A model generated the notes under the pieces. The model had not been told where the DNA came from and searched no databases. It saw nothing but the letters and a program-made list of their open reading frames with translations. Of a stretch of DNA of 64,000 bases, positions 33,460 through 62,803 are shown in pieces. The stretch is from Eukaryota sp. GEM-RC1. Lineage: Eukaryota. Made by a program: the position numbers and the translations under genes. The first letter of the stretch is position 1, and the number at the start of each line of letters is the position of its first letter. The DNA is taken from the NCBI GenBank assembly GCA_040285855.1, contig JAUFOQ010000016.1, positions 2,790,001 to 2,854,000 of the forward strand, written 5' to 3'.

Positions 33460-35058
33460 ACTTACTTGCAATAACATGACTCTACCAACAGAACGGAAAA
33501 CTCTTTGTTTGGCTTTCTTTTCTGTTATCGACACCACTAATTCGATGTCACCTGAATCAACTTCTCGAAGAGATCTTTGGAAATGCCGCTGTGAAGCAAA
33601 TGTCACGCAGAAGAAGGGAAGTGGTTGGACCAACTTATTTAATCAGCTAATGACGAAGTACTCTAATCTGGAGGATGAGTATAACCTTATACTCTCTAAC
33701 ACTCAAACAAACCTTACTGACTACTACGTAATGACAAATACCAAGTTCTCTACAACTGGCTTGAGTGGGTTATTCAAACTAATCTTCCTTTCTCTTTTGT
33801 TGAAATGCCTCAATCGCGTCAGTTTTCAAAACTCAAACCTGTGCGCGCCAACACACTGTTAAAGTACTCACGTTTGCTCAAGCAACCAGTATCAGAGAAA
33901 ATCACCAGACTGTTGAAAAACAAATTTGGGTTAATTATCGATGATTGGATGGAAGACCACTCAAAACTACATTATTTAGGTGTCTTTGCCAGTATTGTCG
34001 ATCAACGCTCTCCTATTCTTCTGTCACTTACTCCTTTTAAACTGGATGAATCTGTTGACATTCAAGACCTTTCGAATACTTTTTTTTGGCAGTGGCCAAG
34101 TTGTTGCCCTATTGGAACAGGTTTTGAAACAATACAAACAAGTTGTTCAAAACATTTTGTTTATTTTCGGATAATTGTCCAACAAACAAGAAGTTGTGCA
34201 GAACACTCAAAGTTCCTCTTGTTGGATGTGCAGCACATCGTTTTCAACTGGAGATGAGGGATCATTCTATTATTGTGGGCTCGATCTTGAAAAAACTTGG
34301 TCTTTATTTCCAAAACTTCGCCAAACAAAGTATGCTCTTATGTTGAATCATGATGGAGGCTCCACACCAAAAAGAGCTAATGCAACTACATTGTAGATGG
34401 ATGTCGAATCATTCCATGGTTAAATCATATTTTAGTCTGAAAAGTTCAATTTTGAAGATGGACAATGAAGTGACAAGTTTACTTCCGTCAGCCATGGACG
34501 AAGTTAACTTGAACAAGTTCTTCGAAGAAGCAGAGTACTTCAGAGAAATTTCGGTCTCTCTGCAAGAATCAAGCTTAAATATCGCTGAAGCAAGAGATTT
34601 ATTTGACTTACTTCATGAAGACTATGAAGACCAAAATGAAATATACTTATCTATGTTTTTGTTTAAAAGGCCAAAAAGTTAAAACTATCGTCCTACAAGA
34701 CCTGTTTTACACTTCTTACCACATTCTGAACACTGTTCTTGAAATAACTTCTGAAACTCTTCTTTAGTGACCACTGAAATTTTGGCAGAAAAATAGAGAG
34801 ATTCATTGTGATGACATCATCACGGTGGACATCTAACAGGGTTTGTTTTATTGTGAATCGAAACACATTGAGTCACCGTTGTGTATACCTGGAAGAATTG
34901 CCAAAAGCGTCAAATGAGAAGAATTTAATAAAGAATATTTATAAAACAAATTTGTGTGAAGTGAAGTCTACAAGTGACTCGAGTTGGAGTGAAGTCGAGT
35001 TGGAGTTCTGTAATTTCTACGAGTGGAGTGAAATCGAGTTGGAGTTCGCCCATCCCTA
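33460..35058 (+). mobile_element. Third hAT remnant: transposase pseudogene (~33460-34700), then subterminal GAGTTGGAGT repeats and a hAT-type terminus CATCCCTA (35051-35058)
   Basis: WKCRC...GSGWTNL, GLIIDDW, SDNCPTNK and VGCAAHRFQLE motifs; the terminus reads TAGGGATG on the minus strand, as at Ac-type ends. It is uncertain whether the terminus belongs to this transposase. Confidence 0.7.
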
Positions 35059-37357
35059 GTAATAGCAGTCACATCAGACTTGGGAAGTGGATCAAGTTCA
35101 ATTGAATCAAAAATCGCCATTATACGAGCTTCAACTTCAAACTTTTGCTCTACTGTTGCACATACAAAACTTGGAATTTCTGAAGAAATCTTACGAATTA
35201 CGTGTGCAATGATTAAAGAAACTTGAGGTCTAGTAACACGCAGAACAATGGCCAAAACATCTAAACATTCAATTAATGTATCACGAAGTTGAGCCAATCC
35301 ATGTTCAACGTCATACATTCTAGCATACTGGTCTCCAACACCATTAGTAACACAAGCACGAGCTAAAACCATGTACAAAAAGACACTTGATCCAAGCAAC
35401 CAAGACCTTAAATTTGAATAGCGGAATAAACCCTTCAAACAAGGTTCTAAATTCCCTTTAGTAAATACATCGTAATGAACAGGTTGTAGTCCAGGTTGCC
35501 ATTGAGGATTGGAGGAAAAATGTTTGAAAGGAACTTCAGATGAACAATCCATTGGTGACCAATTGACATTAGAGCATTTTGGACACCTATGTTGATCTGG
35601 GCCTGTCCAGACATTGGGATTATTACCATGTTCACGAACTCCTGAAGTTCCAGAATTTCCAACGATTTGGGTATGACCACAAGTTAAACAGTAATAGAGA
35701 TGCAGTCCACTCTTATTCAGATGAATTTTTGAAAAACAATTATTTGGAAAATTGAAAGAAATAAAAGCAGCTTCAATAGAGGAAGTAGTAAATGCCTGAC
35801 AAGAATCAGAATTTAAAACTTCACCAAGTGGAAGTAGGTAAGAAATAGAGTTTTCAAACAGATCATGAAGTTGTTTAAAATTAGAGTCAGGTATATTCTT
35901 ATTCTTAGAAATTAAAATAGCAGAAACCTTATGCCCAGTGATTTCAGAAAGGTCAATAGCTCCGCTTTGAAGTCTTTGGACTTCTTCCATGATTGCACGG
36001 TTACTCTTATAGTCAGTATCACCTGCTAGACCATTAAAATCGTTATCACTTATAACCAATGGAGCAAGTAAAGGAAGTCCTTTTGAAACGTGACAGGATT
36101 TTTCAAATTTACTTTCTAAATCATGAACTTTCACCTTCAAACTATTGTTTTCACTCTTCAAAAAAGAAATGGTGTCTTTAAGAGAATTCTCTTCATCACG
36201 GAACTGTGTGGTTAAGTCCATAATAGTTTGATCACTCGAGTGGATAAGATCATCATTTTCTTTTTTTAAGTCACTAACTAGACTTTTCAATGAATCTACT
36301 TCTTCTGATAACTGCTGATTTCGAGCTATAAGAGTTCCGTCGTTAATCAAAGATGATTCATCATCACAATCAGAAACATTCACACTTTTAATAATCTCAA
36401 TGATTTCACTGATTGTTGGTCGTAACATGGGATCAGAATTCAAACATCTTGAAATTAAATCCTTTAAACAATCAGGTACTGAAAAATCAAAAGGCAATGG
36501 TTTGTCTCGAAATTTCGCACCAAAAATCTGCTTCGTTGAATACCCTTCAAAAGCTTCTTTTCCAGACAAAATTTCATACATAACTAATCCAAGAGAATAA
36601 ACGTCACTAAGAGGATCAGAGGTTGATTCAAATTGTTCAGGTGCAGCGTATTTGAAAGTCACAGCATTAGCACTCGTTACTCTAGTAGTAGCTGAAACAG
36701 TTTGGGAAGTACCAAAATCAGCAACTTTAACATGACCATCCACTAAGAGAATATTACCTGGTTTCCAAGTCACCATGAACAACAGACTTCAGGTGGAGAA
36801 ACTTGACACCCTGGCAAAGCTCTTTAACGTATCTAAGTGTTACTGGTGACAGAGAACTTGGGAAGGGGGAGGGAAGAAGAAGCTCTTTCCATCACGATAC
36901 CAATGGATTCATTGAAGAAGGAGATGCCATAGACACGTATAATAGAAGGATGATTCAAGTTGTAGAGCAGATTCATTTCCTTTTGGAGTTGGAGTTTTCC
37001 TTTTTCCGTGAGTTCAACCATCTTTACAGCGACAGGGAGATCGGACCATTCAGCAGCGTAGACGACAGCAAAACCTCCCTTTGCGATCTTGGCTCCCAGA
37101 AGTATGTGATCGGAGGGAATTTGAGGGCAAAGATCGCCATTTCGAGAGGCTTGGACGAGATCCTGTAAAGCAAAATTGGTTTTCTTCTCGGTGAGACATT
37201 TGGTACGACAGATGGGACAGTTGTTAAAAGAAGCAGAACATTCAGTACAAGCAGTGTGTCCTTCACCACAGATCAATAGAGGGAGACGAGAAGATAGATT
37301 AAATGATTGATAACAGACAAAGCAGTCCATACAGAGTGTGAAGGAATTGGTTTTCAT
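34968..37357 (-). CDS. Gene A: RING finger + TKL-like protein kinase + coiled coil + RNF213-like RZ-finger module; two indels (~36765, ~36868); 3' end truncated by a hAT terminus
   Basis: CFVC...CGEGHTACTEC...CPIC RING; GGFAVV, VAVK, HGDLK (frameshifted), DFG and YAAPE kinase motifs. The C-terminal module is shared with genes B-D. The conserved ATG (MDCF) is at 37330. Confidence 0.8.
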
Positions 37358-37389
37358 TTTTCAAAACCATGAACTTGCTGAGTATGTAC

Positions 37390-40902: not shown

Positions 40903-42915
40903 TTATAATGGTAACGAAATATCATCAATTTCGTTAACAATTGGTGACGACGCAACCAAAGATGACAACGCAGCAACATCACTACCCAATTCATCTATTG
41001 AAACTTCCTCAATTCTAGAGCTCAAAGTAATAGCAGTCACATTAGACTTGGGAAGTGCATCAAGTTCAATCGAATCAAGAATGGTCATGATACGAGCTTC
41101 AACTGCAAACTTTTCCTCTATTGATGTACATACAAAATTTGGAATTTCATTAGAAATCTTACGAATTACGTGTGCAATGATTAAAGAAACTTGAGGTCTA
41201 GTAACACGCAGAATGTTGGCCAAAACATCTAAACATTCAATTAATGTATCACGAAGTTGAGCCAATCCATGTTCAACGTCATACATTCTAGCATACAGGT
41301 CTCCAATACCATTAGTAACACAAGCACGAGCTAAGACCATGTACAAAAAGACACTTGATCCATGTAACCAAGATCTTAGATTTGAATAGCGGAATAAACC
41401 CTTCATACAAGGTTCTAGAGTTCCATTAGTAAATACATCGTAACGACCAGGTTGTAGTCCAGGTTGCCATTGAGGATTGGAGCAGAAGTGTTTGAAAGGA
41501 ACTTCAGATGAACAATCCATTGGTGACCAATTGACAGCAGAGCATTTTGGACACCTATGTTGATCTGGTCCAGTCCAAACATTAGGCCCACTACCATGCC
41601 TACGGACTCCTGACCGCCCACAATCACCAATGATTTGGGAATGGCCACAAGATAAACAGTAATGGATATGTAGGCCAATGTTTTGTAAATGAATTCTTGA
41701 AAAACAACTATTTGAGAAATTGAAGGGAATAAAAGCAGCTTCAATAGAGGAAGTAGTAAATAACTGACAGGAATCAGAATTTAAAACTTCACCAAGTGGA
41801 AGTAGGTAAGAAGAAGAGTTTTCAAACAGATCATGAAGTTGTTTAAAATTAGAGTCAGGTATATTCTTATTCTTAGAAATTAAAATAGCAGAAACCTTAT
41901 GCCCAGTGATTTCAGATATGTCAATAGCTCCGCTTTGAAGTCTTTGGACTTCTTCAATGATTGCAGGATTACTCTTATAATCAGTATCACCTGCTAGACC
42001 ATTAAAATCGTCATCAGTTATAATCAATGGAGTAGGAATAAGGTCCTTTTGATTAAGGCTGACATTTGAATTGCTAGTCTTGTTAATTGAATCACTAAAA
42101 GATGACAATTCAGAGCTGTTATTCTTCAGTTCATCATCTTTCTGAAGTAAAGAATCAAAATCCAAAATTTTGAACTTATCAACAAGAAACTCTAGTAATG
42201 GCTGTTCTAGTTTTCTAATTCCACGTAAAGGATCGAGAAGTAAGTTCTCCCAATCTTTTAGGGAAAAAACAGTCAAATTGAAGTGATTCAAAATATTTGA
42301 AAACTGATATAATTCAAAATTAAAATTACAGACGGAGACCACTAATGACCTGACTAACCAGGATTGCAATTGATGGTCATCACAAAACTTAGTCAGCAAT
42401 TGAATAGAATCAGTTTTCAAATTAACACCGACATCAATTTGAATATCTTTTGATATCTTCAAATATGAACCAGCAATCTCCAAAGCCCTTAAATCATGAT
42501 TTTCATCTGCTCGTAACAGAAAAAGGAGCAACCAGGTCCAATTAACCAAGTTTTGAGTCATTACCAGTTCAATTTGGGTGATCAATGGATCTGCTTGAAA
42601 GTAATGGGCTAGGTAAAACAGATCGTAAACATTGGATTCAAAGACATCAACTTTGACACCATAAAGAGCGCTAATAAATGCAATAAAAGATGAATCACTT
42701 ACTGCTAGATGAGAAAAATCTAAGGGATTATTGTCTCTGTCAGCACACTCCACGTACCCAAGATCAAAGCAAGTCTTGGAGCTGGAAGCAAGCACGTTTC
42801 TACACACGTGGAGGGTATGGTCACCAAAGACAAGAGTTTGATCAGAGAGGGATGAGTTGTTGAATAGGGAGGAGAGAATGTCAGAGGAGGTTATGGAAAG
42901 AAACGGTTGTGACAT
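40903..42915 (-). CDS. Gene B: BTB/POZ domain + helical region + RNF213-like RZ-finger module (670 aa, intact)
   Basis: N-terminal SDQTLV...LHVCRNVLASSSK...FISALYG...LFYLAHYFQ BTB pattern; C-terminal CLSCGHSQIIGDCGR...CPKC and a downstream helical block shared with A, C and D. Confidence 0.85.
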   Translation of the reverse strand: MSQPFLSITSSDILSSLFNNSSLSDQTLVFGDHTLHVCRNVLASSSKTCFDLGYVECADRDNNPLDFSHLAVSDSSFIAFISALYGVKVDVFESNVYDLFYLAHYFQADPLITQIELVMTQNLVNWTWLLLFLLRADENHDLRALEIAGSYLKISKDIQIDVGVNLKTDSIQLLTKFCDDHQLQSWLVRSLVVSVCNFNFELYQFSNILNHFNLTVFSLKDWENLLLDPLRGIRKLEQPLLEFLVDKFKILDFDSLLQKDDELKNNSSELSSFSDSINKTSNSNVSLNQKDLIPTPLIITDDDFNGLAGDTDYKSNPAIIEEVQRLQSGAIDISEITGHKVSAILISKNKNIPDSNFKQLHDLFENSSSYLLPLGEVLNSDSCQLFTTSSIEAAFIPFNFSNSCFSRIHLQNIGLHIHYCLSCGHSQIIGDCGRSGVRRHGSGPNVWTGPDQHRCPKCSAVNWSPMDCSSEVPFKHFCSNPQWQPGLQPGRYDVFTNGTLEPCMKGLFRYSNLRSWLHGSSVFLYMVLARACVTNGIGDLYARMYDVEHGLAQLRDTLIECLDVLANILRVTRPQVSLIIAHVIRKISNEIPNFVCTSIEEKFAVEARIMTILDSIELDALPKSNVTAITLSSRIEEVSIDELGSDVAALSSLVASSPIVNEIDDISLPL

Positions 42916-43501: not shown

Positions 43502-46500
43502 CTACGTCGATAATTTCTTTAAGCCGTGAAACATCTCAGACACTTTCAATTGACACTCCTCCAAGAATTTCAAATCGTCATTGTAATAACAAAGGTCACA
43601 GTCCTGGGAATCCATTGGATGAATTCCAACTCTCAAAACAAACTTCTTTAATAAACTAATATGAGTCATGATATCTGGAATTCCTTTTAGTTTGAGTAAT
43701 GACTTTACAGTTTTAGCTAAAAGTTTGGACTTGAACTGAGACTGAACCAATTCTTCCAGAATGTGATACGGGAAATTTTGCTCAACCAACTTTAATATTG
43801 TTAAAATCTGCCCAATCGGTTCATTTTCAAAAGAAGTCCAATATTTTGACAGAAATCGTCAAGTTTTCTCTGCTTCAGGAATGCCTTTAAGCTCATAGAC
43901 CTGTCATTTGGAGGTTCTGTAGCGATAGTTCTAGTGACAATAATAATTTCATTATACAGAGGTAGGTAATCATCATCAATAACGGAAGGTGGAAAAACAA
44001 CATTACCATCGACAGTAAAACCTTCTTCTAAAAGAATATCCTCCAAGTCATATAGATCTTTGGTTTTGGAAAGTAGAAACTCTGGAGATTCTATTGGTTC
44101 AATTTTGTGCTTAATCAATCCAGAAAGAATGTAACCGTCATAAACGTGATCTACAATACGTAAACGGCAAGTGAAAGGATCAAGGGTGATACCACGACCT
44201 TCACACTTTATCTGAACAAAGGAATCAGAATTGATTGAAAAGAGATCAATCGATCCCAATGAATAATTCCCAACAAGAGCATTATGAGTGTTAACAAATT
44301 CTTCTTCAATTAGAGTTCGAATAGGCATAGCATCACCAGAATCGTCAAGAGTGAATAATCCAAGGCAAGAAGAATCAGAAAGCTCTTCATCAAGAAGATA
44401 TGATTGACACCCAACAGTGATTTCTTCTCTACCCAATAATCGTCGCAAATCAGTCACAATTAAACTATAGCTGTCAATTGCTTCTGAAAACAGTCTTTTA
44501 CTAGGCCGATTAGTCATAATTGATGTAATCGGAGTAATGATTGCCTTGTCTTTAAGGATTGAAGCAGTCTCTTCACGAACAAATTTAACAAGTTTTAAAA
44601 ATTCTGGAAGGTGTTCGCCGACGATCATGAAACTGTTTGATTTTGAAATATCAATAATATTTAAAAATGGTGACGACTTATCAGCAATTTCGTTAACAAT
44701 TGGTGACGACGCAACCAAAGATGACAACGCAGCAACATCGCTGCTAAATTCCTCTACTGAAACTCCCTCAATTCTAGAGCTCAAAGTAAGAGCAGTCACA
44801 TCAGACTTGGGAAGTGGATCAAGTTCAATTGAATCAAGAATGGTCATGATACGAGCTTCAGCTTCAAACTTTTCCTCTATTGTTGTACATACAAAATTTG
44901 GAATTTCATTAGAAATTTTTCGAATTACGTGTGCAATGATCAAAGAAACTTGAGGTCTAGTAACACGCAGAATGTTGGCCAAAACATCTAAACATTCAAT
45001 TAATGTATCACGAAGTTGAGCCAATCCATGTTCAACGTCATACATTCTAGCATACTGGTCTCCAATACCAATAGTAACACAAGCACGAGCTAAGACCATG
45101 TATAAAAAGATACTTGATCCAAGTAACCAAGATCTTAGATTTGAATAGCGGAATAAACCCTTCAGACAAGGTTCTAAAGTGCCATTAGTAAATACATCGT
45201 AACGACCAGGTTGTAGTCCAGGTTGCCATTGAGGATTGGAGCAGAAGTGTTTGAAAGGAACTTCAGGTGAAGAATCCATTGGTGCCCAATTGACAGCAGA
45301 ACATTTTGGACAATTATGTTTATCTCCCCCTGTCCAAACATCGGGACGATTGCCATGTTCATTAACTCCTGAACCTCCACAATTTTCAACGATTTGAGTA
45401 AACCCACAAGTTAAACAGTAGTGGCTATGAAACCCATACCTATTTAAATCAATTCTTGAAAAACAATTATTTGGGAAATTAAAGGGAATATAAACAGCTT
45501 CAATAGAGGGAAGTAGAAAACGTCCTACAAGAATCAGAATTTAAAACTTCACCAAGTGGAAGTAGGTAAGAAATAGAGTTTTCAAACAGATCATGAAGTT
45601 GTTTAAAAATAGAGTCAGGTATATTCCTATTCTTAGAAATTAAAATAGCAGAAACCTTATGCCCAGTGATTTCAGACAGGTCAATAGTTCCAGCTTGAAG
45701 TCTTTGGACTTCTTCAATGATTGCAGGATTACTTTTATAGTCAGTATCACCTGCTAAACCACTAAAATCGTCATCATTCAAGTTCAATGGGGCAAGTAAC
45801 TCCTGTTTTTGACTGGTAGTTCCATCTGAATCCTTGATTAAACAAGAAAGAGCTTCCATTGCTTCACCCTCAGTTCCACGTGATAAAAGTAAACGAATAA
45901 GGAAAGTCTTTGTTCCAATCAAATGTGATTTTGTCTTTTCTGATTGGTCAAGTGAGAAGTTCAAAACTTCGATAGGAAGTGGTTGGTTTTTGTCAATAAG
46001 ATCTGTAACCAAGATAGAAAATAACTTACTATAAAGAGTAATTAGAGTGAGTTGTGAGGCTTTACGTAACTTAGCCAGTACTTCAGACAGAGTTGGTAAC
46101 GGGAAACCAAGTTTAGGCACACATGAAGCAAATGACTGAGACAAGGAAGCCAAAAACCATGGAAAAGATTCAGAATCACGGTACCTTAAGAAAAGAGATT
46201 CAAGACAAGTGGGGGTTGATTCAATAAATGATGATAAGTTTGGGTGGTTCGGATTCATTTTCAATTTTTCAAACAATTTTTCAAATATTAAAGGAGTCAC
46301 GTCACCAATAACAGAAGGATCACTAACAAGCTCAAAAAGATTAGACTGTAACAACAACTCAGGATTAAAATGATCACAAAGAGCTCCAATGACACGTAAG
46401 CGATTAGGTGTTGGATCTGACAAGAAGAATTTAATAGTGTCTAAAACATCTTGTTCACTAGTAATTATATTCTCAGAAGCAAGTTCGTCAGGACAATCAT

Positions 46501-48271
46501 GAACATATGCTAACTTTAACCAAGAAGTACATATTCTGCCTAAAGAACTATCTTCAATCTCTAAAGAAAGATGAGATAACACAGCTTCTTTAGCTTCAGG
46601 TTGCAGAGAATTAATGAGCTGGAAACCCAGAGCTGTCGTTGATTGATCCTCATGGATTGGTTGGTTGAGTGATTGGAGATGAGCAATAACACGTGATTGG
46701 TGGTAAAGTTGTTTGTTTGTTAAGAAAATGTAAAGCTCAGAAAAGAGATCAACGATTGAGGGACAAGCAGAAGCATTTTGAACGAAAGAATCAACAAAGA
46801 ATACCGATATCTCGAAATATTCAAATATTGGTCGAACAATTGAGGTGATATCATTTTCTTCAACTTTGCAGGTATAATTATAAAGCATAACATCGTGATC
46901 TGACATATCTTCAATCAACTCCAAAAAGAGATCAAGCTCAGAATTGTTATCACGATGATATTCAATTAAAGCACAAATAAAGTAAAGGAAAGGCAGTTCC
47001 ACGAAAGTTAAGATTCCAAATGAAGTTCTTGTAGAATTGCATTGTGGTAACTTAGACGAAGATAAAATCCAAGAAACGTATTCAAGGTAAGATTTAATCG
47101 ACATAAAACCGGTATCAAAAGGAATCATCAGATTCCAATCAATTAACACGGAGAAAACTTCTTTCAAATGTGAAAACACGTGATCGTTAACGATGGTGAA
47201 AGAACTAAACTTTGTAAGTTTTCTTTCTAAATCACGAACTGTCTCAATCAAACAATTGTTGTGGTTGATCAAAAGGGTACTACTATCATTATCCCCAATC
47301 AAAAATGTTTGATCATCACAATCAGAAACATTCACACCTTTAATAATCTCAGTAATTTCATTGATTGTTGGTCGTAACATGGGATCAGAATGCAAACATT
47401 TTGAAATTAAATCCTTTAAACAATCAGGTACTGAAGAATCAAAAGGTAATGAATCGTTGATATCAGGACTCTGACTCGCCACTTGGCCTTCAAAAGCTTC
47501 TTGTCCAGACAAAATTTGATACATAATTAACCCAAGTGAATAAATGTCACGTTGAGGTCCATATTGTGTATTTAATTCATCTGAAACACCAGTTTTAGAA
47601 AACACGGCAGGTTTTCCAGTTTTCAAAGAAGTTGTAGAAACAGTTTTGGAGGTACCAAAATCAGCAACTTTAACGTGACCATCCACTAGAAGAATATTGC
47701 ATGGTTTCAAGTCACCATGAACAACAGACTTCAGGTGGAGAAACTTGACACCCTGGCAAAGCTCTTTAGCGTATCTAAGTGTTACTGATGACAGAGAACT
47801 TGGGAAGGGGAGGGAAGAAGAAGCTCTTTCCATCACGATACCAATAGAATCATTGAAGAAGGAGATGCCATAGACACGTATAACAGAAGGATGATTCAGG
47901 TTGTAGAGCAGATTCATTTCTTTTTGGAGTTCGAGTTTCCCTTTATCTGTAAGGGCAACCATCTTGACAGCGACAGGGAGATCGGACCATTCGGCTGCAA
48001 AGACGACAGCAAAATCATCTTCTGCAATTTTAGCTCCGAGAAGTATGTGATCGGGAGAAATTTGAGGGCAAAGATCGCCTTTATTGGAAGCAATGACCAG
48101 ATCGAGTATACAAGAGTTAGGCTTCTTCTCCTTGAGACATTCGATACGACAGAAGGGGCAGACGTCTAGAGAAGCACAGCATTCAGTACAAGCAGAGTGT
48201 CCTTCGCCACAAACCAACAGAGGAAGACGAGAAGATAGATTAAATGGCTTGCAGCAGCCAAAGCAGTTCAT
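43502..48271 (-). CDS. Gene C: RING + degenerate kinase + long helical region + RZ-like finger + RNF213-like C-terminal domain (~1,590 aa); frameshifts at ~45509 and ~43853
   Basis: ORFs 45500-48310, 43801-45279 and 43502-43789 join by single-base corrections. The hidden segment translates SIEAVYIPFNFPNNCFSRIDLNRYGFHSHYCLTCGFTQIVENCGGSG...CPKC. Confidence 0.8.
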
Positions 48272-50852: not shown

Positions 50853-53800
50853 CTACAAAGTCAATCTCTCCAATCCCCAAAAAGTATCAGAGGCTTTCAA
50901 TTGAGATTCCTCCAAGAATTCAAAATCTTCACTGAAACAACAAACTTCATAGTCTTGCGAATCCATGGGATGAATTCCAACTCTCAAAACAAACTTCTTT
51001 AATAAACTAATAAATTCTCTAATGCGAGACTTTCGTTTAAGTTTAAGTAAAGATTGTACCTTACTAACAGAAAGTTTGGTTTTAAACTGATCCTGAACCA
51101 ATTCTTCAAGAAGCTGGAATGGGAAATGTAGTTCTACCGAATTTAATACTGTTAAAATCTGCCCAATAGGTTCATTTTCAAAAGAAGTCCAATATTTTGA
51201 CAGAAATCGTCAAGTTTTCTCTGCTTCAGGAATGCCTTTAAGCTCATAGATCTGTCATTTGGAAGCTCTGTAGCGATAGTTCTAGTGACAATAATAATTT
51301 CATTATAAAGAGGTAGGTAATCATCATCAATAATGGAAGGTGGACTGACAACATTATCATCAACAGTAAAACCTTCTTTAAATAGAAGGTCTTCTAAGTC
51401 ATATAAGTCCTTGGTTTTAGAAAGGAGGAACTCAGGAGATTCTATTGGTTCAATTCTGTGCTTAATCAATCCAGAAAGAATGTAACCGTCATAAACGTGA
51501 TCTACAACACGTAAACGGCAAGTGAAAGGATCAAAGGTGATACCACGACTGTCACACTTGATTTGAACAAAGGAATCAGAGTTGATTGAAAAGAGATCAA
51601 TCGATCCCAATGAATAAGTTCCAACAAGAGTATTATGAGTATTGACAAATTCCTCTTCAATTAGAGTTCGAATAGGCATAGCATCATCAGAATCGTCAAG
51701 AGTGAATAATCCAAGACAAGAAGAATCAGAAAGTTCTGTTGGTACAGGTAACATTTGACACCCTACAGTTAATTCTTCTTTATCCATTTGTTCCTGCAAA
51801 TTCGTCACAATTAAGTTATAACTATTACAAGCATCGTCAAAAGTTTACTACTGTGACGATCAGTCAAGATTGATTTGGATTCACAAACAATAGCTTTGTG
51901 TTTGAACATCGAAACAGTCTTTCCACGAACAAATTTCACCAGTTTTAAAAATTTAGGGAGATGTTCGGCAACACTCATAAAACTGTTTGATTTTGAAATA
52001 TCAACATTATTTAAAAATGGTGACGACTTATCAGGAATTTCGTAAACAATTGGTGACGATGCAACCAAAGAAGACAACGCAGCAACATCACAACCCAATT
52101 CCTCTATTGAAACTCCTTTAATTCCAGAGCTCAAAGTAAACGCAGTCAAATCAGACTTGGGAAGTGGATCAAGTTCAATTGAATCAAGAATACCCATGAT
52201 ACGAGCTTCGGTTTGTCGCTTTTGCTCAATTGTTGTACATACAAAATTTGGAAATTTATGAGAAATTTTTCGAATTACGTGTGCAATGATTAAAGAAACT
52301 TGAGGTCTAGTAACACGCAGAACAATGGCCAAAACATCTAAACATTCAACTAATGTATCACGAAGTTGAGCCAATCCATGTTCAACGTCATACATTCTAG
52401 CATACTGGTCTGCAATACTATTAGTAACACAAGCACGAGCTAAGACCATGTACAAAAAGATACTTGATCCAAGTAACCAAGATCTTCGATTTGAATAGCG
52501 GAACAAACCCTTCATACAAGGTTCTAAATGTATAATAACAAATACATCGTAACAACCAGGTTGTAGTCCAGGTTGCCATTGAGGATTGGATGAAAAGTGT
52601 TTGAAAGGAACTTCGCATGAAGAATTACATGTTGACCAATTGACAGCAGAACATTTTGGACACTTATGTTCACTTGACCCTAACCAAACATCAGAACCTC
52701 TACCAAAGGCGTGAACTCCTGAACTTCCACAATTACTAACAACAGCAGAATAACCACAAGTTAAACAGTAATAGATGTGTAGGAAACTCTTATTCATATT
52801 TAAATCAATTCTTGAAAAACAACTATTTGGAAAATTGAAAGGAATATAAGCAGCTTCAATAGACGCAGTGGTAAATGCCTGACAAGAATCAGAATTTAAA
52901 ATTTCTCCAACTGGCAGTAAACAGGCAAGGGAATTATCAAAAACATTGAAAATGTGTTTAAAATTTGATTCTGGTATATTCATATTCTTAGAAATTAAAA
53001 TAGCAGAAACCTTATGCCCAGTGATTTTAGATAGGTCAATAGCTCCGCTTTGAAGTCTTTGGACTTCTTCAATGATTGCAGGATTATTCTTATAGTCAGT
53101 ATCATTTGCTAAACCATTAAAATCGTCATCATTCAAGTTCAATGGGGCAAGTAACTCCTGTTTTTGACTGGTAGTTCCATCTGAATCCTTGATTAAACAA
53201 GAAAGAGCTTCCATTGCTTCACCCTCAGTTCCACGTGATAAAAGTAAACGAATAAGGAAAGTCTTTACTCCAATCAAATGTGATTTTGTTCGTACTGATT
53301 GGTCAAGTGAGAATATCAACACTTCGATAGGAATTGGTTGGTTTTGGTCAATAAGATCTGCAACCAAAATAGAAAATAACTTACTATAAAGAGTAATTAG
53401 AGTTAGTTGTGAGGCTTTACCTAACTTAGCCAGTACTTCAGACAGAGTTGGTAATTGTAATCCAAGTTTAGGTAGAGATGAAACAAAAGACTGTGACAAA
53501 GAAGCCAAAAACCATGGAAAAGATTCAGAATAAATATAAATTAAGAAAATCAGATCAAGAATTGGTGATGTTGCTTCAATGAATGGTAATAACTGTGTAT
53601 GGGCAGAATCAGATTTCAATTTTTCAAACAATTTTTGAAAAATTAATGGAGCAACATCACCAATAACAGAAGGATCACTAACAAGCTCAAAAAGATTAGA
53701 CTGTAACAACAACTCAGGATCAAAATGATCACATAGAGCTCCAATGACACGTAAGCGATGAGGTGTTGGATCTTTCAAGAAGAATTTAATAGTGTCTAAA

Positions 53801-55268
53801 ACACCTTGCTTACTAGTAATTAAATTCTCAGAAGCAAGTTCTTCAGGACAATAAAGAATATATGCTAACTTTAACCAAGAAGTACATATTCTACCTAAAG
53901 AACTATCCTCAATCTCTAAAGAAAGATGAGATAACACAGCTTCTTTGGCTTGAGGTGTAGGAGAAAGAGAATTAATGAGCTGGAAACCCAGAGCTGTCGT
54001 TGATTGAAGGTCAAAGACTGGAGTATTTGATGGTACACTCAAAGACTTTACAGTAGATTGTATACAGGACTTATAGTTTGTAAGTTGATTCTCGGCATCG
54101 TGGACTTTCTCCTTTAAAACATTGTTTTGATGTGTCAAAAGAGAGATAGTTTCATTAAGAGAATTCTCTTTGTTGGTAAACTGTGAGTTTAAATTCACAA
54201 TATTTTGATCATTCGATTGTAAAAGATCAACATTTTCTTTTTTTAAGTCAGTAACTTGACTTTTCAGTGAGGATATTTCATCTGATAATTGCAGATTTGG
54301 AGCTACAACAGCTTCATTATCATCACAATCAGAAACATTCACATTTTTAATAATCTCAGTAATTTCACTGATTGTTGGTCGTATCATGGGATCAGAATTC
54401 AAACATTTTGAAATTAAATCCTTTAAACAATCAGGTACTGAAGAATCAAAATGTAATGGTTTGTCTCGAAATTTAGCACCAATAATTTGATTAACCGAAT
54501 ACCCTTCAAAAGCTTCTTTTCCAGACAAAATTTCATACATAACTAATCCAAGTGAATAAATGTCACTAAAAGGACCAGGAGAATCATCAAATTGTTCAGA
54601 AGCAGCGTATTTCGGAGTTACGGCATGTGTCTTTGTTACCATGGTAGTGGTAGTAGAAACAGTTTTGGAGGTACCAAAATCAGCAACTTTAACGTGACCA
54701 TCCACTAGAAGTATATTACCTGGTTTCAAGTCACCATGTACAACAGACTTCAGGTGGAGAAACTTCACACCCTGGCAAAGCTCTTTAGCGTATCTAAGTG
54801 TTACTGGAGAAAGAGAACTTGGGAAGGGGGAGGGAAGAAGAAGCTCTTTCCATCACGATACCAATGGAATCATTGAAGAAGGAGATGCCATAGACACGTA
54901 TAATAGAGGGATGATTCAGGTTGTAGAGCAGATTCATTTCTTTTTGGAGTTGGAGTTTTCCTACATCTGTAAGTTCAACCATCTTTACAGCGACAGGGAG
55001 ATCGGACCATTCAGCAGCGTAGACGACAGCAAAACCACCTTCAGCTATTTTAGTTCCGAGAAGTATGTGATCGGAGGGAATTTGAGGACAAAGATCGCCA
55101 TTACGAGAAGATCGGATGAGATCTTGTAGAGCAAAATTAGGTTTTGTTACGCTGAGAGATTGACTACGGCAGACAGGACAGATGTCCAATGCAGCTGAGC
55201 ATTGAGCACATGCGGTGTGTCCTTCACTACAAATCAATAATGGAGTCATAACAAACAACACAATCCAT
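50853..55268 (-). CDS. Gene D: RING + TKL-like kinase + coiled coil + helical region + RZ-like finger + RNF213-like C-terminal domain; possible pseudogene
   Basis: ORFs 54794-55279, 51811-54768, 51152-51808 and 50853-51101 are collinear with gene C. There is a ~23-nt frameshifting deletion in the RING (~55243) plus homopolymer indels. Confidence 0.78.
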
Positions 55269-55469
55269 TGATAGATCAAGAATAGGAATGAGTTACTAAT
55301 GATTGAAGTACTATAGTATAAAGCGAAGAAAGGATCATTTTTACTAACGACATGTGGTCCTCATCCATCAACACACAGCATCTATTAGTACTACGTCTAC
55401 ACGTAATAGTAGACTTGATAGTCTTATTGAGAATAACTCTGTCCTCGATGTTTCTATAAGTGAACCAAT

Positions 55470-57592
55470 TTCAATTGCAGTGGGTGAAACAATTTCTCGT
55501 ATTTTTTCAACTTTGTGCTTTAGGAGAGTCAGAGATTCCTCTGTTGAATTCTTTAGACCGTTTCAATTTGCAGTTGGAGTTCCTGATGGTACTACGTGTG
55601 CTGCTTTAACCTCTGATTTTCTTTTTCATTCAAATGAGGAAAATGCCATTTTGAACATTGATTTTAAAAATGCATTTAATTGTGTTTTAAGATCAACTAT
55701 ATCTGACGAACTTTCTAAATTTTTTCCTCAGTTGATTCCCTATTTTAATATTTTTTTATGGTAAAGCGTCGAATTTAATTTATGACAAGTTTGATATTAA
55801 ATCAACTAGAGGGGTTAAGCAAGGTGATCCTTTGGGTCCTTTTTTGTTTTGTCTCGCTCTGCAAAAATTATTTAAAATCTTACAATTAGAATTTCCAACT
55901 GTTAAAATTTGTGCTTATGCTGATGATTCTTCGCTGATCGCTCCAGTTGACGTTCTCAAAAAGTGTTTTTCACGTTTCATCGAACTTTCTTTGAGTATTG
56001 GTTTAACAATCAATTTTGATAAGTGTTTTCTTGTTGTTAAGTCTTCGAATGTTTCTAATCTTGGTTTTTGTAATATTCCTATCATCGATTATTCTACTCA
56101 ATGTTTTCGTTTCCTTGGCACGTTTTTGGGAAATTATGAGAAAATTCATTCAGAATTGGAGAGTTCATTAACTACAATTGAAGAAAAACTAAATCAAATA
56201 TTATCTTTAGATGTGAGCAAACATGTTTCCTTTGCTATGCTTCAGGTCTGTTTTTCCGGGAAAATTAATCATTTTTTACGTTCATTAGACTATTCCCTTA
56301 CTGAAACATTTGCCAAGAAATTTAATTCTATTAGAACAAATTTTCTCTCTAACTTGGCTGAAATTGATGAGTCTAAGATTCCATTTCATGCTTTTTATTC
56401 TTCTGAATTCGCAGGAGTAGGTTTCACCCATGCAAAAATCATTAGAAAATCTGCTCTTTTAGGAGGTGTTAAGAATTTTATGTTTGAATTTTTGAAACGG
56501 TTTCCCTTGGATGGAATCAATCTGTTGAATTCCAGTAATTGCCGTTGGATTCAATCTGTTAAAGATTTGTTATCATCTTTGTCTCCTGAAATGTGGGAAT
56601 CTTTGTTCCCTGCTCATTTGAAGGAGACTCCTTTAAAAATATTTCATCTCTACCATCTGCTGTATGTAAGCTGCAAAATAAATTGACAAGGAGTTTGAAC
56701 TCTTGGACTTTAATAATCGTATTAGCTTGGCTAAAACTAATAGTCCCGAGTTCGCTGCTTTTTTAATCGATCTTTGTAATAGTGGACCTTCTGGATTTAT
56801 TTCTCAAATTCCAAAGGTGTATGGATTACATCTATCTGATGAAGCTTGGATGATCAATATGCGTCTTCGTTTGGCTATTTGGCCTGCAAATTTATTAAAC
56901 TATTCAACGTGCTCTTGTGGAGCTAATGGTGTTTTTCGTCATTTAATTAATTGTCGTTATTTTATTCATCTCCGTGCAGTAATTCATGATGGTGTACGTG
57001 ATTCTTGTTATTCCATGTTTAAAGCACATGGTTTTCACTCTAAAGTTGAACCAGTTTTGAATCATCTTTCAGAAAATGAATTTACTGATCAAAAACGAGG
57101 GGATCTACATACTCCGTGGCTTAAATCGAGTCAAGCATTAATGGATTTTACTACAGTAGATGTATGTAACAAATCTTGTGTTAGTAGGATATTAGATTCT
57201 TCTTTTAATCCATTAACAGCAGCTGAAAAGCTCAAACACACCAAGTATGACTCTCAAGTAGAAGAATTAAATAGAAACTCATATTCCAAATTTGTGTTTC
57301 AACCTTTTGCTGTTTCTCTTTTTGGATCTATTAGTCCTGCTGGTGATCAATTTTTCAAGGATTTCGAAGAATTGTGTAAAGAAAAGAAGCGTAAGTTTAG
57401 AATGGCTGAATGGAAAAACCGTATAGTGTTTTCCATATATCGGAATATGCCTTTCTATTTCTCTAGATTAATTGAGAAATTGTACAAGTTTGGTGTGAAG
57501 GTTCATGTAGATAAACGTAATCTTTTACCGGGTGGTGATGAAGTCGTTTGGATTTAATCTTAGTATTATTTGTTTGTTTTTACAATTTCATA
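55470..57592 (+). mobile_element. 5'-truncated CRE/R2-group non-LTR retrotransposon (RT + zinc knuckle + restriction-like endonuclease)
   Basis: IAVGE, QFAVG, DFKNAFN, GVKQGDPLGPFLF, YADD and FLG RT motifs; CSCG...HLINC, RGDL..DFT and AEKLKHTKY endonuclease motifs; frameshifts at ~55755 and ~56640. Confidence 0.9.
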
Positions 57593-58051
57593 GTTTGTAG
57601 AAAGGTTACCTTATTGGGTGCCGAATAAACATCTCTCTTTAGTGAACCAACACTTTTTTCGATTCTTCTACTAAGGAAGTTTTTAAATTTGCTTGAAAAT
57701 TTGTGTTCAGAATTTGATAAGAAGTTTAACATCGCGTACTGGATGAGTAAAATTGATGTTTCGATTTTTTAGTCTTTTTTAGATTTGTTGATTCCATTTT
57801 GGCCAAGTTGTTTGGTGGTACACTATTTTTGGGAATTGGGTAATTCGTTTGATACTCTGTTTTTTATAATCTTTATTTATTTGTTGTTTTCTTGTTGTGT
57901 GTTTTTCTTCGCAGATAAATCCGTTTTTATTACCAGGTCCACTAAAGTCACTTGAGTAGAGTGTACCTACATCTAATCATCAATATCCACAAAGTCCAAA
58001 ATTTGTCTTTGGAGATACAAATGATCTTGTGATCTACTTTCAACATAGTGT

Positions 58052-58400
58052 ATGTTTGAAGGTAATTTCTGGACTGATGCTCATCTCATTGGTTTCGTCA
58101 AACCCGGTCAGGGAATTAAATCTGATGGAATCCGTCCAATTGCTTTTGGACAATCAATCTCCCGTTTCTTTGCTTCAATTGTTTTTAATCGAGTGGTTGA
58201 TACATCAGGTCGCTTTTTATCTCCATTCCAATCTGGAATTAAGATATCATCTTTGTTGTTTAATTCTCATGATGATAACTTAACTTCTATTGTCCATTCT
58301 ACAATGCATTTGATTCCGTTAGTCGTAAGTACGTTTTTGCTTTGACTGAAAAAGAGTATTCTGAGTTATCATCCTACTTTTTTTCATTTTATTAAAAATC
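58052..58400 (+). pseudogene. Short RT fragment of a related non-LTR family
   Basis: LIGFVKPG...DGIRPIAFGQSISR...LSPFQSGI...NAFDSV. Confidence 0.65.
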
Positions 58401-59044
58401 AAGTGATTACATTTGTGATGTTACTACAATTTTGAGCACATAAATCTCATGTTATAACATCAAGAATTATTTGACTGGAATTAATAAAGAGAAGATGTAA
58501 GTCAACTCGATCCGAATTATTAATTGAATCAAGACTGAATCACCGAATACTGTTCTAAATGACAAAATCCATGAGATTCAATCATTCAAATGTAACATCT
58601 GTGACAATATTATGAAGGAACGAAATTGAATGAATTTGGGGCTATTATTTACATATCTAAACCTTGGACAGCGATGATTACTACATAAACATTCAGAGAT
58701 GTCGTGCAAATCAGCACAAAACTACGTGTACGTTTTTCAAAAACTAATTCTGAAAATTTATAAAGGCAAGTATTCCACATCAAACCAGTCATTGTCCTTT
58801 TACAACTTAGAACAAATGTAACTGTTGTACTTAGGAGAGGTTTTGTAATGCGCAAACATAATACGATTAAACCTAAAGAACCAAAAAAAGCCGTACATTA
58901 GAACGAACAAAAGGTCAGAATCAAACGTATTGCTAACCTACACTGTTAATTAACTAAATTGTATGTATAAATTATACACATTGAATACAATTTTGTTTAT
59001 TAGTAAAGAATATATGATAGCAAGTCATAATCAATCAAGTCTAT

Positions 59045-62000
59045 TTAGGTTTCATCCTTTTCAGACAACTTACCAAAGTCCATCATGAGAGGGATTAAAC
59101 ATGAAGGTTCTGGGTGAACATTATACAAAAGCTTATCACCGTCACCTTTTTGATATGGATTGATAGCAGCTACTAAGCGGACTTTTGGATGTAAAGTTAG
59201 AGTTCCAAGCTTTCTGTTGGTAATTAAACCAGACACGAGTCCTAAGAAATCAGAAGCATTACATTCATCTAAAAATAGAATCGGAAAGAGAGGACTTTCA
59301 GGAGGAAGTAGTATGGCAAGATTGTTGACCCTTTTAATAGTATCTTCTACTTCGCGAAGTTCTGTACCAGCATTTACAGTAACGTTAACAAACAATTCTT
59401 CCCATATATTAGGATTTTCAACACATTCATTCCAAAATAAAATAAAACTTAAACATTCAAGTAAATGAGTTTTTCCAACACCACTAGCACCTCGAAGAAT
59501 GGTAGGCAAATTAGCAGAAAACCTAAGAGCAATTAAGGTTTGTTTAAGGTAAGCATCACCAGTAAGGGCGTAGCTTCCGAAACGTTCTTTCCATAATTTA
59601 GGTGGCACAGAGCTGTCAAAAGTAAACGAACGAATTATTGAAATTTTTCCTTCATCAGTGGCTGGTATTTCGACTGAATCCCTGGAAGAAGTGTTCATAT
59701 CGATATAGGTTTTGAGAGCATTTGGAACGGTACTTCCTCTTGGAACTGTAATTGAAGGAGAATCACGAGTTAACATGAACATAACATGATTCATATCATT
59801 CCAATTAACCACAACTTCATCTCTATCAGGAGCACTGATCGTGGGTACTGACATGAGAACGGTCTGACGGGCAAAGCCAAATATTAGATCAATACCACCA
59901 CGGCGAATGTCATCAGTTTGACTGTCACTGTACCCATTTAGAGTCATAATCTCAGGAGAAAAGGCGACAGCTTGACCAAAATAGTACAATTGTGATCCCA
60001 GTAAAGAAACAATATCTGTAAGTAGTCTAAATGACCATTGACTTTGATGAGGAGGAGGTAGATCTGCAAAAGTATTAGTAAAAAGAGGTTCTAACGAAGC
60101 AGAAGAATTGAGAAGAGTGGAAAGAAAACGAGAAATTGTAGCGACGTGTGCTTTCATTTCTTCAGAAGTGAATTTAACATGGCGAAAATCAAAAGTAAGT
60201 TCATGGACAAGATCATCTTTGTTTGGATATAAAGAATCAATAAGAGAATTATACCAATTAAATGGAGTTAAACTGGCTCTGGAATATGAAGCAAACTCAA
60301 TATACATCTTTTCCTCAAGTCTAAAAATAGAACCATTGTGCCGAAGACCTGAGAGAAAGGACAATGAAAACAAAATGTAACCAGTATTGTAGAAGTCTTG
60401 GGAAGTCAAATTGGATGACGTTGTCCAGTGTTCTCGAGTGAACGTTCTTTTTAAAACATCCAAAGGCTCTCGAATGTCTAAATGAATATTAGGATTTGTC
60501 CAATCAATCTTATCATCACGAAGATATTTTTCAATAAACTCAGAAATATTAACTTTTCCCGAAACATTAAATGTTTTTGTATGAGTTTCAATCAAACCTT
60601 CAGGAACGCATTCTCTTAAACACCTTGTAGTTTTACCTTGACCAGGTACTGCTGACGTGTAAATTGCACCTACAGAACAGCTTTCTAATACTGAAGACAA
60701 GTCAACTTCCGAAGGAAGGGTACCAAGTGCACAGTGGATATTGTCAAGGAAATCAGTACCAGACCCAACGACAGAAATTTTAAAATTGTCCTCATTCTTA
60801 TCCTTCATATAAGTGAAGAACTTCTCTCGAACGGAAAATCTCAATTGATCAAAACCAATAATTAATCGTTCAGATACTAGTGAGTCAGACATAACAGCAA
60901 CTAAAGAACTGAAAGAAGTTTCCCAATTACAAATTAAAACATTTCGAATGTTCAATTCAATCTCTCTATGAACTGCTATTTTCAAAGCATCAGTGAAAAG
61001 ATTTGATAGAGAATCTGATTGAAAGTACGAGACTGATCGGTCTTTAATTTCAACAACAGGAGCTGCAGAATTGAATATTTCCTCGAGTTTAACATTGACA
61101 GTATAACTGGCATCAATTCCAGATTGAGCTGAATTATTTGCAAAATATTTTGGGATTTCAAAATATCTTACTATATCAGCCACGTGACGATTCAAAAGAA
61201 AGTTTGAAATTTCTTTCGGATGCATGCCTCTAAACCAGCCATTTTGAGCTTGTTCCAAGAGAGACATCCAAGTATCACGTAATTCTCGTAAAGTCTCGAC
61301 TTGTTGTTGAATACCAGAGTTATGTTCTTCAATCATAACAATAAGTTCAGGCTCATTAGATTTGATGGGAAAACCACAATCAACTAATTGTCTCAAAATA
61401 AAAAGTGTTTCATCAACTAGTTGAGATATATTTAAAAATTGATCTCTTTTTTCATCATCAACTCCAGACTTTCGATCAACTTGTTCCTCGTTATTATCAA
61501 TAGATTCTACTTTAAGACGAAGTCCTTCAGCTCTAGCTCTATGAAACTCTTCTTCTGGGATATCAATTGTACTATCTTCTCCAGTAGGAAGCTGCAGTCT
61601 GACAGTAATGGTCTCAAGATTGAAACGTAAAATACCTTCTTGGAAATTACACTTAGAAATGATATTAATCAATGCAGATTGATCACCATCACTGACCAAC
61701 AACTCGTCAATCGCCTTGATTGCACTCTTTAATTGATTGATTGACTTAACATCTGCAGCAACACGTTGAGGAGAGTTACAATTTTGTTCATCCATTCATG
61801 AAGATTTCTTAATAACTGACGCATGTTAACATTTCCATCATCAAACATTGGCTTTAATACAGAATTCCATAGAGATTTGGGATCATCCAACATACTGATG
61901 AAAAACTGAGCGACAGAGCTATTAACAGTATAAGAGGCGGCAAAGTTACCATAGAGCTTAGAGGAAAGTTCTTCCGGTGTTAAAGTAGAGTGTTTGTTCA

Positions 62001-62803
62001 GAATTGAAAGTAAGTCATCCGCATTGTTAAGAAGTTGGAAGATTTGTAAATACAGTGGCGGTGACGTACGATTGCAATGACTGCAATCAACCATTGAGCT
62101 CAACTTCTTGGAGTAAGATCCAAAGTCAGATAATAGAGAGTCTGGAGAGAGTTCTGGAACAGAAGTAATTCTTCTATCAACAATGAACGTTGAAACTAAG
62201 ATTGAACTAAATAATCCAGACGAATTCTTGAAACAGGCAATGATTGGATCCCACACGTGACGATTGACCCATGATTTGATATTAAACAGAACATCTTTCT
62301 GAAGTTTTCCAGAGGGATCAAGGAGGGAAAGAATTTCCATTTCATTAGACATTTCTTCTTCTTTAAAACTACTATAAATAGACTCCAAATGAGAAGCCTT
62401 GACATCAGGTTCAAGCAGTTGGGCAATGAACTGTACAATTTGTTGAGAAATTGTAGTAGCAGCTGCTACAGGATCAATTCCAGAAGGAACATCACCATCT
62501 TGATCGTTTCCAAAAGAATCTTTGACGTCTTTGTCATCACTAAGCAGAGCGGCAGGATGCTCAATCAGGAAATCGGAACATGAATTAACATAGCCGGTGT
62601 AGAAATGATGGAATAAAGCCGTAGAAGAAATCTTTGCAACCAAAAATTTCACGGGGGGAATTATTATCGATCTGTAAGTCTTTCAACAAAGCGGAAGCTA
62701 TCTGTGTTCTGAGGGGAGAAATTGGAAACGATATCATCATCAAGAGAAGAACAAGAGATTGAAATTCATTCCGCAATTCTGACAAGTTTGATACGCTCAA
62801 CAC
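59045..62803 (-). CDS. RNF213/mysterin-like AAA+ ATPase fragment (stalk + first two AAA modules), frameshifted and apparently truncated at both ends
   Basis: YTSAVPGQGKT and IHLDI (first module); ILRGASGVGKT, ILFLDECN, VAAINPY and LLYNVHPEP..LIPLMMDFGKLS (second module). These match my recollection of RNF213 motifs (GETGCGKT, FFDEAN, AACNPY, LVYRVHALP..LIPLVWDFGQL). ORFs 62585-62803, 61729-62652 and 59045-61795 overlap by frameshifts. Confidence 0.8.

What the first reader, a model, noticed from the sequence alone, without database searches (positions are those of the whole stretch)
34968..62803. Cluster of shuffled RNF213-like RZ-finger E3 modules fused to RING-kinase or BTB domains, beside an RNF213-like AAA+ gene
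Seen: four co-oriented genes share a ~330-aa C-terminal module. It contains CxxCG(H/F/Y)x4(G/E/S)(D/N)(C/S)G...CPKC followed by a helical block (LRDTLIECLDVLANILRVTRPQVSLIIAHVI...TIEEKFEAEARI), and in C and D a further ~400 aa (LPEFL...FVNTHNALV). The N-termini differ: RING+kinase in A, C and D; BTB in B. An RNF213-like AAA+ gene lies in the same orientation at 59-62.8 kb. Established: animal RNF213 is an AAA+/E3 ligase whose RZ finger (C-x2-G-H-x4-GECG...CxxC) ubiquitylates pathogen surfaces, including LPS, independently of its RING. Gene B's GHSQIIGDCGR has the same spacing. Inference: the RZ/C-terminal catalytic module has been detached from the AAA ring and re-wired to kinase or BTB (cullin-3 adaptor) inputs, making a candidate modular cell-autonomous defence family in a microbial eukaryote. 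I know of no described RING-kinase-RZ or BTB-RZ architecture.
Basis: partly seen in the sequence, partly recalled or inferred. Interest (0 to 1): 0.86.

Follow-up and report, generated by a model that had tools for sequence, protein, structure and literature searches.

The report
RNF213 ligase tails on new heads
A single-celled eukaryote has repeatedly copied the tail of its relative of the human anti-pathogen enzyme RNF213 and fused it to kinase or BTB heads, which would likely give ubiquitin ligases freed from the ATP-sensing ring, though expression and activity are untested and some copies are damaged.

Summary
Genes A-D carry the C-terminal E3 region of this organism's own RNF213-like AAA+ gene (75-82% identical to GEMRC1_003134), joined in frame to RING-kinase (A, C, D) or BTB (B) at four different junctions. 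A Skoliomonas-only profile matches RNF213 from the RZ finger through the CTD (hhalign probability 97.6%, 567 columns). The finger fails Pfam PF20173 and is a variant: CxxC...CxxC, the catalytic-position Cys is kept in B, C and D but is Ser in A, and the canonical His is missing, with a conserved His in an insert instead. A and B lack the CTD that mammalian RNF213 needs to bind its E2; C and D keep it. Gene E is only a fragment that ends after one AAA domain. Most frame breaks sit in short base runs of an indel-prone assembly; the frames show purifying selection, and the finger is the most divergent part of the module. No expression data were listed. Verdict: new variant of a known kind; ligase activity and a defence role are inferred.

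The parts
35058..37330 (-). Gene A: RING - kinase - coiled coil - RZ-like finger (catalytic position Ser) - helical core; no CTD; two frame breaks (~36870, ~36766); cut at 35058 by unrelated sequence
35574..35693 (-). RZ-like finger of A (CxxC-x8-S ... HG ... CxxC)
40903..42915 (-). Gene B (670 aa, one open frame): BTB - linker - RZ-like finger (Cys kept) - helical core; stop before the CTD, followed by ~80 nt of decayed CTD-like DNA. BTB 78% identical to the BTB at the head of RNF213-like P0010
41542..41661 (-). RZ-like finger of B (CxxC-x8-C ... HG ... CxxC)
43502..48271 (-). Gene C (~1590 aa if the two breaks at ~45511 and ~43826 are assembly errors): RING - degenerate kinase - long E3 region - RZ-like finger (Cys kept) - core - CTD
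45301..45420 (-). RZ-like finger of C
50853..55268 (-). Gene D: RING with ~23-nt deletion near its start - kinase - coiled coil - E3 region - RZ-like finger (Cys kept) - core - CTD; further breaks at ~54830, ~51842, ~51176
52651..52770 (-). RZ-like finger of D (most divergent of the four)
59045..62740 (-). Gene E: fragment of an RNF213-like gene (stalk to first Walker A/B AAA domain), 85% identical to P0026/P0010; no later AAA domains or E3 part; 5' end approximate

Best explanation
These genes are copies of the E3 tail of the organism's own RNF213-like gene, joined in frame to RING-kinase or BTB heads, and the copies that keep both the finger's cysteine and the CTD (C, D) likely work as ubiquitin ligases that no longer need the AAA ring. 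Shown: origin, junctions, domain content, purifying selection, extra divergence in the finger. Inferred from mammalian RNF213: an E2~ubiquitin docks on the CTD, passes ubiquitin to the finger's Cys (the C of D/N/E-C-G), and the His of the conserved HG insert would stand in for the missing general base. Inferred: the kinase, RING or BTB head replaces the ATP-sensing ring and stalk as the element that switches on or places the ligase, and the divergent finger loop would tune which targets are tagged. B (Cys but no CTD) would need an E2 brought in by a partner, for example a cullin-RING complex bound through its BTB; A (Ser, no CTD) is likely a non-catalytic or dying copy. A role against engulfed bacteria or other intruders is an analogy with animal RNF213 and is untested. 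The family appears to turn over by birth and death in a transposon-rich region.
For: Module is 75-82% identical to the C-terminal part of P0026, a 2919-aa protein with AAA ring and E3 tail in one gene model on a contig of the same length. The HMMER search of 1.84 billion representatives gave 10 hits, all from the three Skoliomonas-clade genomes; 3 of the 10 are 3078-3970-aa AAA+ proteins with the module at the C-terminus. Skoliomonas-only profile against 4 RNF213 proteins: probability 97.6%, P 3.4e-12, 567 columns from the pre-RZ helix to the CTD; against their C-termini score 96.6 versus 38 column shuffles (max 20.4) and 24.6 reversed. The catalytic-position Cys-Gly and the HG insert are kept in the full-length proteins of all three species at ~25% overall identity. 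Four distinct head-tail junctions, each inside an open frame; kinase fusions recur in 3 more records. dN/dS 0.20-0.54 in 7 of 8 pairwise segment comparisons outside the shared module; open frames unlikely under neutrality (P 0 to 0.02 in 5 of 5 segments, 400 runs each). All 14 indels among four tandem 6-kb repeat copies lie in base runs, so the assembly is indel-prone here. Finger region has 86 of 216 variable columns versus 136 of 789 elsewhere. Foldseek ranks human RNF213 first (TM by query 0.40, 256 columns) for a model folded without RNF213 rows, though E is only 0.45.
Against: No expression or activity data. Pfam PF20173 is not reached (best 6.4 bits against a cut-off of 27) and HMMER profiles without RNF213 rows do not find RNF213 in the PDB or score it well (8 bits). 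Canonical general-base His and its hairpin are absent. Mammalian RNF213 needs ATP binding to its AAA core and needs the CTD (PMC12075652, passages), so an AAA-less module could be inactive and A and B should be. The CTD Trp that binds E2 could not be placed with confidence. Real lesions exist: A's Ser and truncation, B's early stop, D's RING deletion, the deleted finger loop in P0004, C's kinase (dN/dS 0.92 against D), and fragment E. dN/dS in the finger is 0.27-1.16, not clearly above 1, and in the shared helical block 0.36-0.78. Purifying selection could partly be inherited from full-length donors.
Confidence: 0.55

Rival explanations
1. The cluster is debris: RNF213 pieces duplicated and joined to members of other expanded families by recombination in a transposon-rich region, now silent or decaying, with no selected new function.
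For: LTR, non-LTR and transposase-like remains all around; E is a fragment; A is cut; D's RING has a 23-nt deletion; P0004's finger has lost the Cys; near-identical copies of D (99.8%) and of C's finger (P0019) show recent segmental copying.
Against: All four junction types are in open frames; B is one 670-aa frame whose DNA matches C at 90% up to the stop and decays within ~80 nt after it; dN/dS 0.20-0.34 in RING and kinase of A versus D or C, which are not RNF213 parts.
Confidence: 0.25
2. The fusions are made but are not ligases: they would act as scaffolds, decoys or dominant regulators of the full-length RNF213-like proteins, or as bait for microbial inhibitors of the E3 module, with the kinase or BTB as the output.
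For: Loss of Cys (A, P0004) and of the CTD (A, B) while the helical block stays nearly invariant; RNF213 activity depends on the AAA core and CTD (PMC12075652); divergence is concentrated in the exposed finger.
Against: C and D keep finger Cys, both CxxC pairs and a CTD under purifying selection (dN/dS 0.30-0.40); the isolated ZNFX1 RZ fragment is an active ligase (10.1101/2025.10.14.682297, passages).
Confidence: 0.15
3. The fusions are assembly chimeras.
For: The assembly has indel errors in repeated DNA; no reads could be laid.
Against: Each tail differs from P0026 by 18-25% and from the others by 10-15% of bases, junctions differ and recur in separate records; the genome was built from long reads (10.1101/2023.05.03.539051, section 5).
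Confidence: 0.04

Closest known systems
RNF213 / mysterin (human, mouse; also Naegleria gruberi NAEGRDRAFT_80150)
   Same: Homologous RZ-position zinc finger, helical E3 core and CTD in the same order; Cys at the nucleophile position; Naegleria also has CxCGY in place of C-x3-H. Gene E and P0026 carry the RNF213-type AAA domain.
   Different: A-D have no AAA ring or stalk; heads are RING-kinase or BTB; finger is CxxC...CxxC with a 14-residue insert bearing HG and without the GGxxH hairpin; A and B lack the CTD; several copies per genome.
ZNFX1
   Same: RZ finger used outside an AAA ring, with a RING-like E2-binding domain in the same chain (10.1101/2025.10.14.682297 and 10.1101/2025.09.05.674436, passages); a loose parallel to RING + finger in A, C, D.
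   Different: No helicase, NFX1 fingers or Miz domain here; the module derives from RNF213 and brings its helical core and CTD, which ZNFX1 lacks.
Full-length RNF213-like proteins of the Skoliomonas clade (GEMRC1_003134, P9112_010863, RCL1_002976)
   Same: Direct source of the module; same variant finger.
   Different: They keep the AAA ring; the other two species gave one full-length hit each and no fusion among the 10 representatives.
BTB adaptors of cullin-3 ligases; RING-kinase proteins such as plant KEG (both recalled, not tested)
   Same: BTB or RING + kinase at the N-terminus, followed by another module.
   Different: The C-terminal module is itself a predicted ligase part rather than a kelch, MATH or ankyrin substrate-binding domain.

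Membership tests
RNF213 (full-length) | Dynein-like ring of six AAA domains in the same chain as the E3 module | tested here: not met
   A-D match only residues >=1709 of P0026; E ends at residue 789 after one Walker A/B domain
RNF213 (full-length) | E3 region homologous to RNF213 from RZ to C-terminus | tested here: met
   hhalign 97.6%, P 3.4e-12, 567 columns, profile without RNF213 rows; 75-82% identity to P0026
RNF213 (full-length) | CTD (E2-docking domain) present | tested here: inconclusive
   Present in C and D if frame breaks are errors; absent in A and B; the E2-binding Trp/Glu of PMC12075652 could not be placed
RZ finger (Pfam PF20173) | Score above the curated cut-off of 27 bits | tested here: not met
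   Best 6.4 bits (D); none listed for A, B, C, P0006, P0021, P0023, P0026; Naegleria control 58.5 bits
RZ finger | Zinc ligands C-x3-H ... CxxC (C4505, H4509, C4525, C4528; PMC11549300) | tested here: not met
   Pattern is CxxC ... CxxC; the His is kept in A, B, P0026 but is Phe/Tyr/Ala in C, D, P0006, P0021, P0023. Four ligands remain, so a metal site is likely
RZ finger | Nucleophile Cys seven residues after the His position (C4516) | tested here: met
   Cys in B, C, D, P0006, P0009, P0019, P0021, P0023, P0026; Ser in A; deleted in P0004: 9 of 11 Skoliomonas-clade fingers listed
RZ finger | General-base His nine residues after the last Cys (H4537) | tested here: not met
   Absent at that place in A-D; the hairpin is a gap in the alignment. 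A His-Gly in the insert is present in A, B, C, P0006, P0019, P0021, P0023, P0026 and shifted in D; its role is inferred
RZ finger | Same fold as the RNF213 RZ/E3 core | tested here: inconclusive
   Model pLDDT 65, finger 39-66; Foldseek rank 1 human RNF213, TM 0.40, E 0.45; VIA left out 4 of 157 chains for size or absence
RZ finger | Cys-dependent transthiolation from E2~ubiquitin | not testable with these tools
   needs biochemistry
ZNFX1 | SF1 helicase, NFX1 fingers, Miz domain | tested here: not met
   No such Pfam hits in A-D
Active protein kinase | Gly loop, VAxK, HxD-LK-xN, DFG, APE | tested here: inconclusive
   All present in A (across frame breaks); D has ASE for APE; C has lost Gly loop and APE
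Cullin-3 BTB adaptor | BTB domain that binds cullin-3 | not tested
   BTB domain met (Pfam E 2e-10); cullin binding not examined

The most novel reading that the evidence does not exclude
A protist has turned RNF213 into a modular defence kit: the thioester ligase tail is swapped onto kinase, RING and BTB sensors in place of the ATP-driven ring, the finger is rewired to four cysteines with a relocated catalytic histidine, and the finger loop is the variable target-recognition element kept diverse while its flanks are homogenised.
Probability: 0.3. Interest if true: 0.85.

Novelty: new variant of a known kind. Interest (0 to 1): 0.62.

Why it matters
In the papers read, RZ-type ligase activity is tied to two giant nucleotide-regulated proteins, RNF213 and ZNFX1, and how the AAA ring switches on the RNF213 E3 module is stated as unresolved (PMC12075652). 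Natural AAA-less versions of 670 to ~1590 aa would show whether the module is active on its own and what else can control it. The variant finger would test which residues RZ chemistry needs, and it shows that Pfam misses RZ fingers in a whole protist clade. If a defence role held, it would extend RNF213-type cell-autonomous immunity to a bacteria-eating metamonad as a diversifying family.

Tried and rejected
No whole genome was held, so no genome-wide count. Sequencing-run search: none was listed, so no reads were laid; this says nothing on expression. Single-sequence phmmer of the module, C or P0006 against the PDB: no RNF213 hit; profiles A2 and A4 likewise. One search hits RNF213 at E 1e-24 but its alignment contained RNF213 rows, so it was used only to map residues. 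First fold (pLDDT 35) gave meaningless Foldseek rows. VIA second look gave no Z above 5 and left out 4 chains; the wide VIA search was not obtained. ESM Atlas: no usable hit in two searches. Word-indexed search for 1174-3350-aa proteins with the module found none, although P0026 and P0022 are of that length and carry it, so that search is insensitive. Metagenome scan: 109 pattern matches, 0 confirmed. A global-alignment null timed out. Long-range CTD remnants after A or B did not beat shuffled controls (score 184-196 versus null max 208). No second end of a transposon was found for the sequence that cuts A. Trees of the module do not resolve the order of copies. Positive selection on the finger: considered, not shown. 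Earlier-findings look-ups returned nothing. No complex prediction was run.
Full report
Source and setting. The window is eukaryotic. Named paralogues lie on a contig of the same length as the window's own proteins (3,558,747 bases) and are labelled Eukaryota sp. GEM-RC1, so the organism is inferred to be Skoliomonas sp. GEM-RC, a free-living bacterivorous metamonad whose genome was built from nanopore reads with Illumina correction (10.1101/2023.05.03.539051, passages and section 5). That TZLM1-RC is S. litria is recalled. No whole genome was held. The region is full of mobile DNA: a tandem array of a ~6-kb LTR-type element at 1-25 kb, a reverse-transcriptase fragment at 55.7-57.6 kb and transposase-like remains.

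The observation. Four minus-strand genes share a module at 85-90% DNA identity. A, C and D begin with RING + kinase, B with BTB. Only B is a single open frame. The AAA ORF matches RNF213 structures (E 4e-10) but stops after its first Walker A/B domain, and nothing else of an AAA ring is in the window.

Origin of the module. Single-sequence searches, Pfam and the ESM Atlas did not name it. A search with the AAA region returned 7 proteins: two from GEM-RC, one from Naegleria, three animal RNF213s and one unnamed. A HMMER profile of the module over 1.84 billion representatives returned 10 hits, all from the three Skoliomonas-clade genomes. A-D are 75-82% identical to its tail (61-74% in the last CTD pieces) and E is 85% identical to its AAA part. 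A profile from window copies and GEM-RC paralogues already matched the C-termini of four RNF213s (score 41.5; 60 shuffles, mean 18.5, max 24.5). With the other two species added and no RNF213 rows, hhalign gave 97.6%, P 3.4e-12, 567 columns from the pre-finger helix to the CTD against the full-length alignment, and 96.6 against the C-termini versus a maximum of 20.4 in 38 shuffles. HMMER with the same rows scored only about 8 bits, so the link needs profile-profile comparison. A model of B's module folded without RNF213 rows (pLDDT 65) ranked human RNF213 first in the PDB, with TM 0.40 but E 0.45; the VIA check was uninformative.

Architecture. Relative to P0026 the tails begin at about residue 1717 (C), 1886 (D, P0008, P0009), and 2173-2181 (A, P0004 with one upstream sequence; B with another): four junction types, each inside an open frame. 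B's BTB is 78% identical to the BTB that heads P0010, a BTB-stalk-AAA RNF213-like model, and the match ends where B's tail begins. B may thus be an internal deletion of a BTB-RNF213 gene or a separate capture of a related BTB (P0007, 92%); I cannot tell which. C and D run to the end of the CTD; A is cut at 35058 and B stops at 40903. Outside the window, 11 further GEM-RC records carry part of this tail (P0004, P0006, P0008, P0009, P0017, P0018, P0019, P0022, P0024, P0025, P0026), 3 of them behind a kinase. This is a rough count: the searches return representatives, and P0006 and P0017 could be pieces of one gene. The other two species gave one full-length hit each.

The finger. RNF213's RZ uses C4505, H4509, C4525, C4528 for zinc, C4516 as nucleophile and H4537 as base (PMC11549300, passages); mouse mutants confirm this and show that the CTD is the E2 dock and that ATP binding to the AAA core activates the ligase (PMC12075652, passages). 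Here the pattern is CxxC-x8-C-G ... HG ... CxxC. The nucleophile-position Cys is in 9 of 11 listed fingers, including both other species; A has Ser and P0004 a deletion. The GGxxH hairpin is missing and an insert with a conserved His-Gly sits between the Cys and the second CxxC; that this His is the base is inference. Pfam PF20173 is not met. No RING pattern was found in the full-length Skoliomonas-clade proteins, so the RING in A, C and D came with the kinase head.

Alive or dead. Four tandem copies of the 6-kb element differ by 28 substituted columns and 14 indels in 6,004 columns, every indel in a base run. The single-base breaks in A, C and D also lie in short runs, and the frame after the last break of C and D matches the uninterrupted protein of the other species, so most breaks are likely assembly errors; this could not be checked on reads (none listed). 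D's ~23-nt RING deletion is not of that kind. dN/dS is 0.20-0.54 in 7 of 8 comparisons outside the shared module and 0.92 for the C versus D kinase C-lobe; inside the module it is 0.36-0.78 for the helical block and 0.27-1.16 for the finger. Under neutral change at the observed synonymous distances, both copies kept open frames in 0-2% of 400 runs for 5 of 5 segments. The finger region has 86 of 216 variable columns against 136 of 789 in the rest of the module (Fisher P 2e-11; region chosen after seeing the alignment), and both dS (0.28-0.77) and dN are raised there relative to the helical block (dS 0.07-0.18). That fits homogenised flanks around retained or swapped finger variants; it does not show positive selection.

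Mechanism. I commit to C and D as likely AAA-independent thioester ligases controlled or placed by their heads (0.55 with the rest of the best explanation). The isolated ZNFX1 RZ fragment is active and ZNFX1 pairs a RING-like domain with its RZ (10.1101/2025.10.14.682297 and 10.1101/2025.09.05.674436, passages), which makes activity outside an AAA ring plausible. Against it, RNF213 itself needs ring and CTD. B would need an E2 from a partner; A is likely inactive as an RZ ligase. Rivals are decaying debris (0.25), non-catalytic regulators or decoys (0.15) and chimeric assembly (0.04). A defence role rests on analogy only.

Novelty. Nine literature searches (listings only, apart from the five papers read in passages above) showed no title or abstract start describing kinase- or BTB-fused RZ modules or RNF213 in metamonads. 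The library lacks most subscription papers, I did not read the paper that defined the RZ finger, bioRxiv supplements were not seen, and InterPro architectures were not checked; I recall many database entries named RZ-type domain proteins, so undescribed AAA-less forms elsewhere are possible. A-D are not members of RNF213 proper (no AAA ring) and fail the Pfam RZ test, but they derive from RNF213 and likely work like its E3 module. Rating: new variant of a known kind, interest 0.62.

Noticed in passing
window 1-25260 (- strand) and 63270-64000 (+ strand): At least four head-to-tail copies of a ~6.0-kb LTR-type retroelement (protease, reverse transcriptase, RNase H, integrase), nearly identical; the start of another copy lies at the far end of the window on the other strand.
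   Followed up: partly
P0010 (GEMRC1_001644): A BTB domain fused to the N-terminus of an RNF213-like stalk and AAA ring; BTB-RNF213 is itself an unusual architecture.
   Followed up: partly
P0021 (P9112_010863), P0023 (RCL1_002976), P0022, P0026: Unannotated full-length RNF213-like proteins whose RZ-position finger is missed by Pfam; at least four AAA-bearing paralogue models in GEM-RC (P0010, P0011, P0022, P0026).
   Followed up: partly
window 55350-57600 (+) and 26445-27145 (-): Reverse-transcriptase (non-LTR-like) element between D and E, with an 87% identical partial copy.
   Followed up: no
window 28500-34700: Fragments that look by eye like DNA transposase, plus a zinc-knuckle gag-like ORF at 31902-32396; the sequence cutting gene A at 35058 looks like a transposon end but no partner end was found.
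   Followed up: partly
P0009 and P0019: A 99.8% copy of gene D and a copy with C's finger sequence lie elsewhere on the same-length contig, pointing to recent segmental duplication.
   Followed up: partly
window 28128-28247: Perfect (ATC)40 microsatellite.
   Followed up: no
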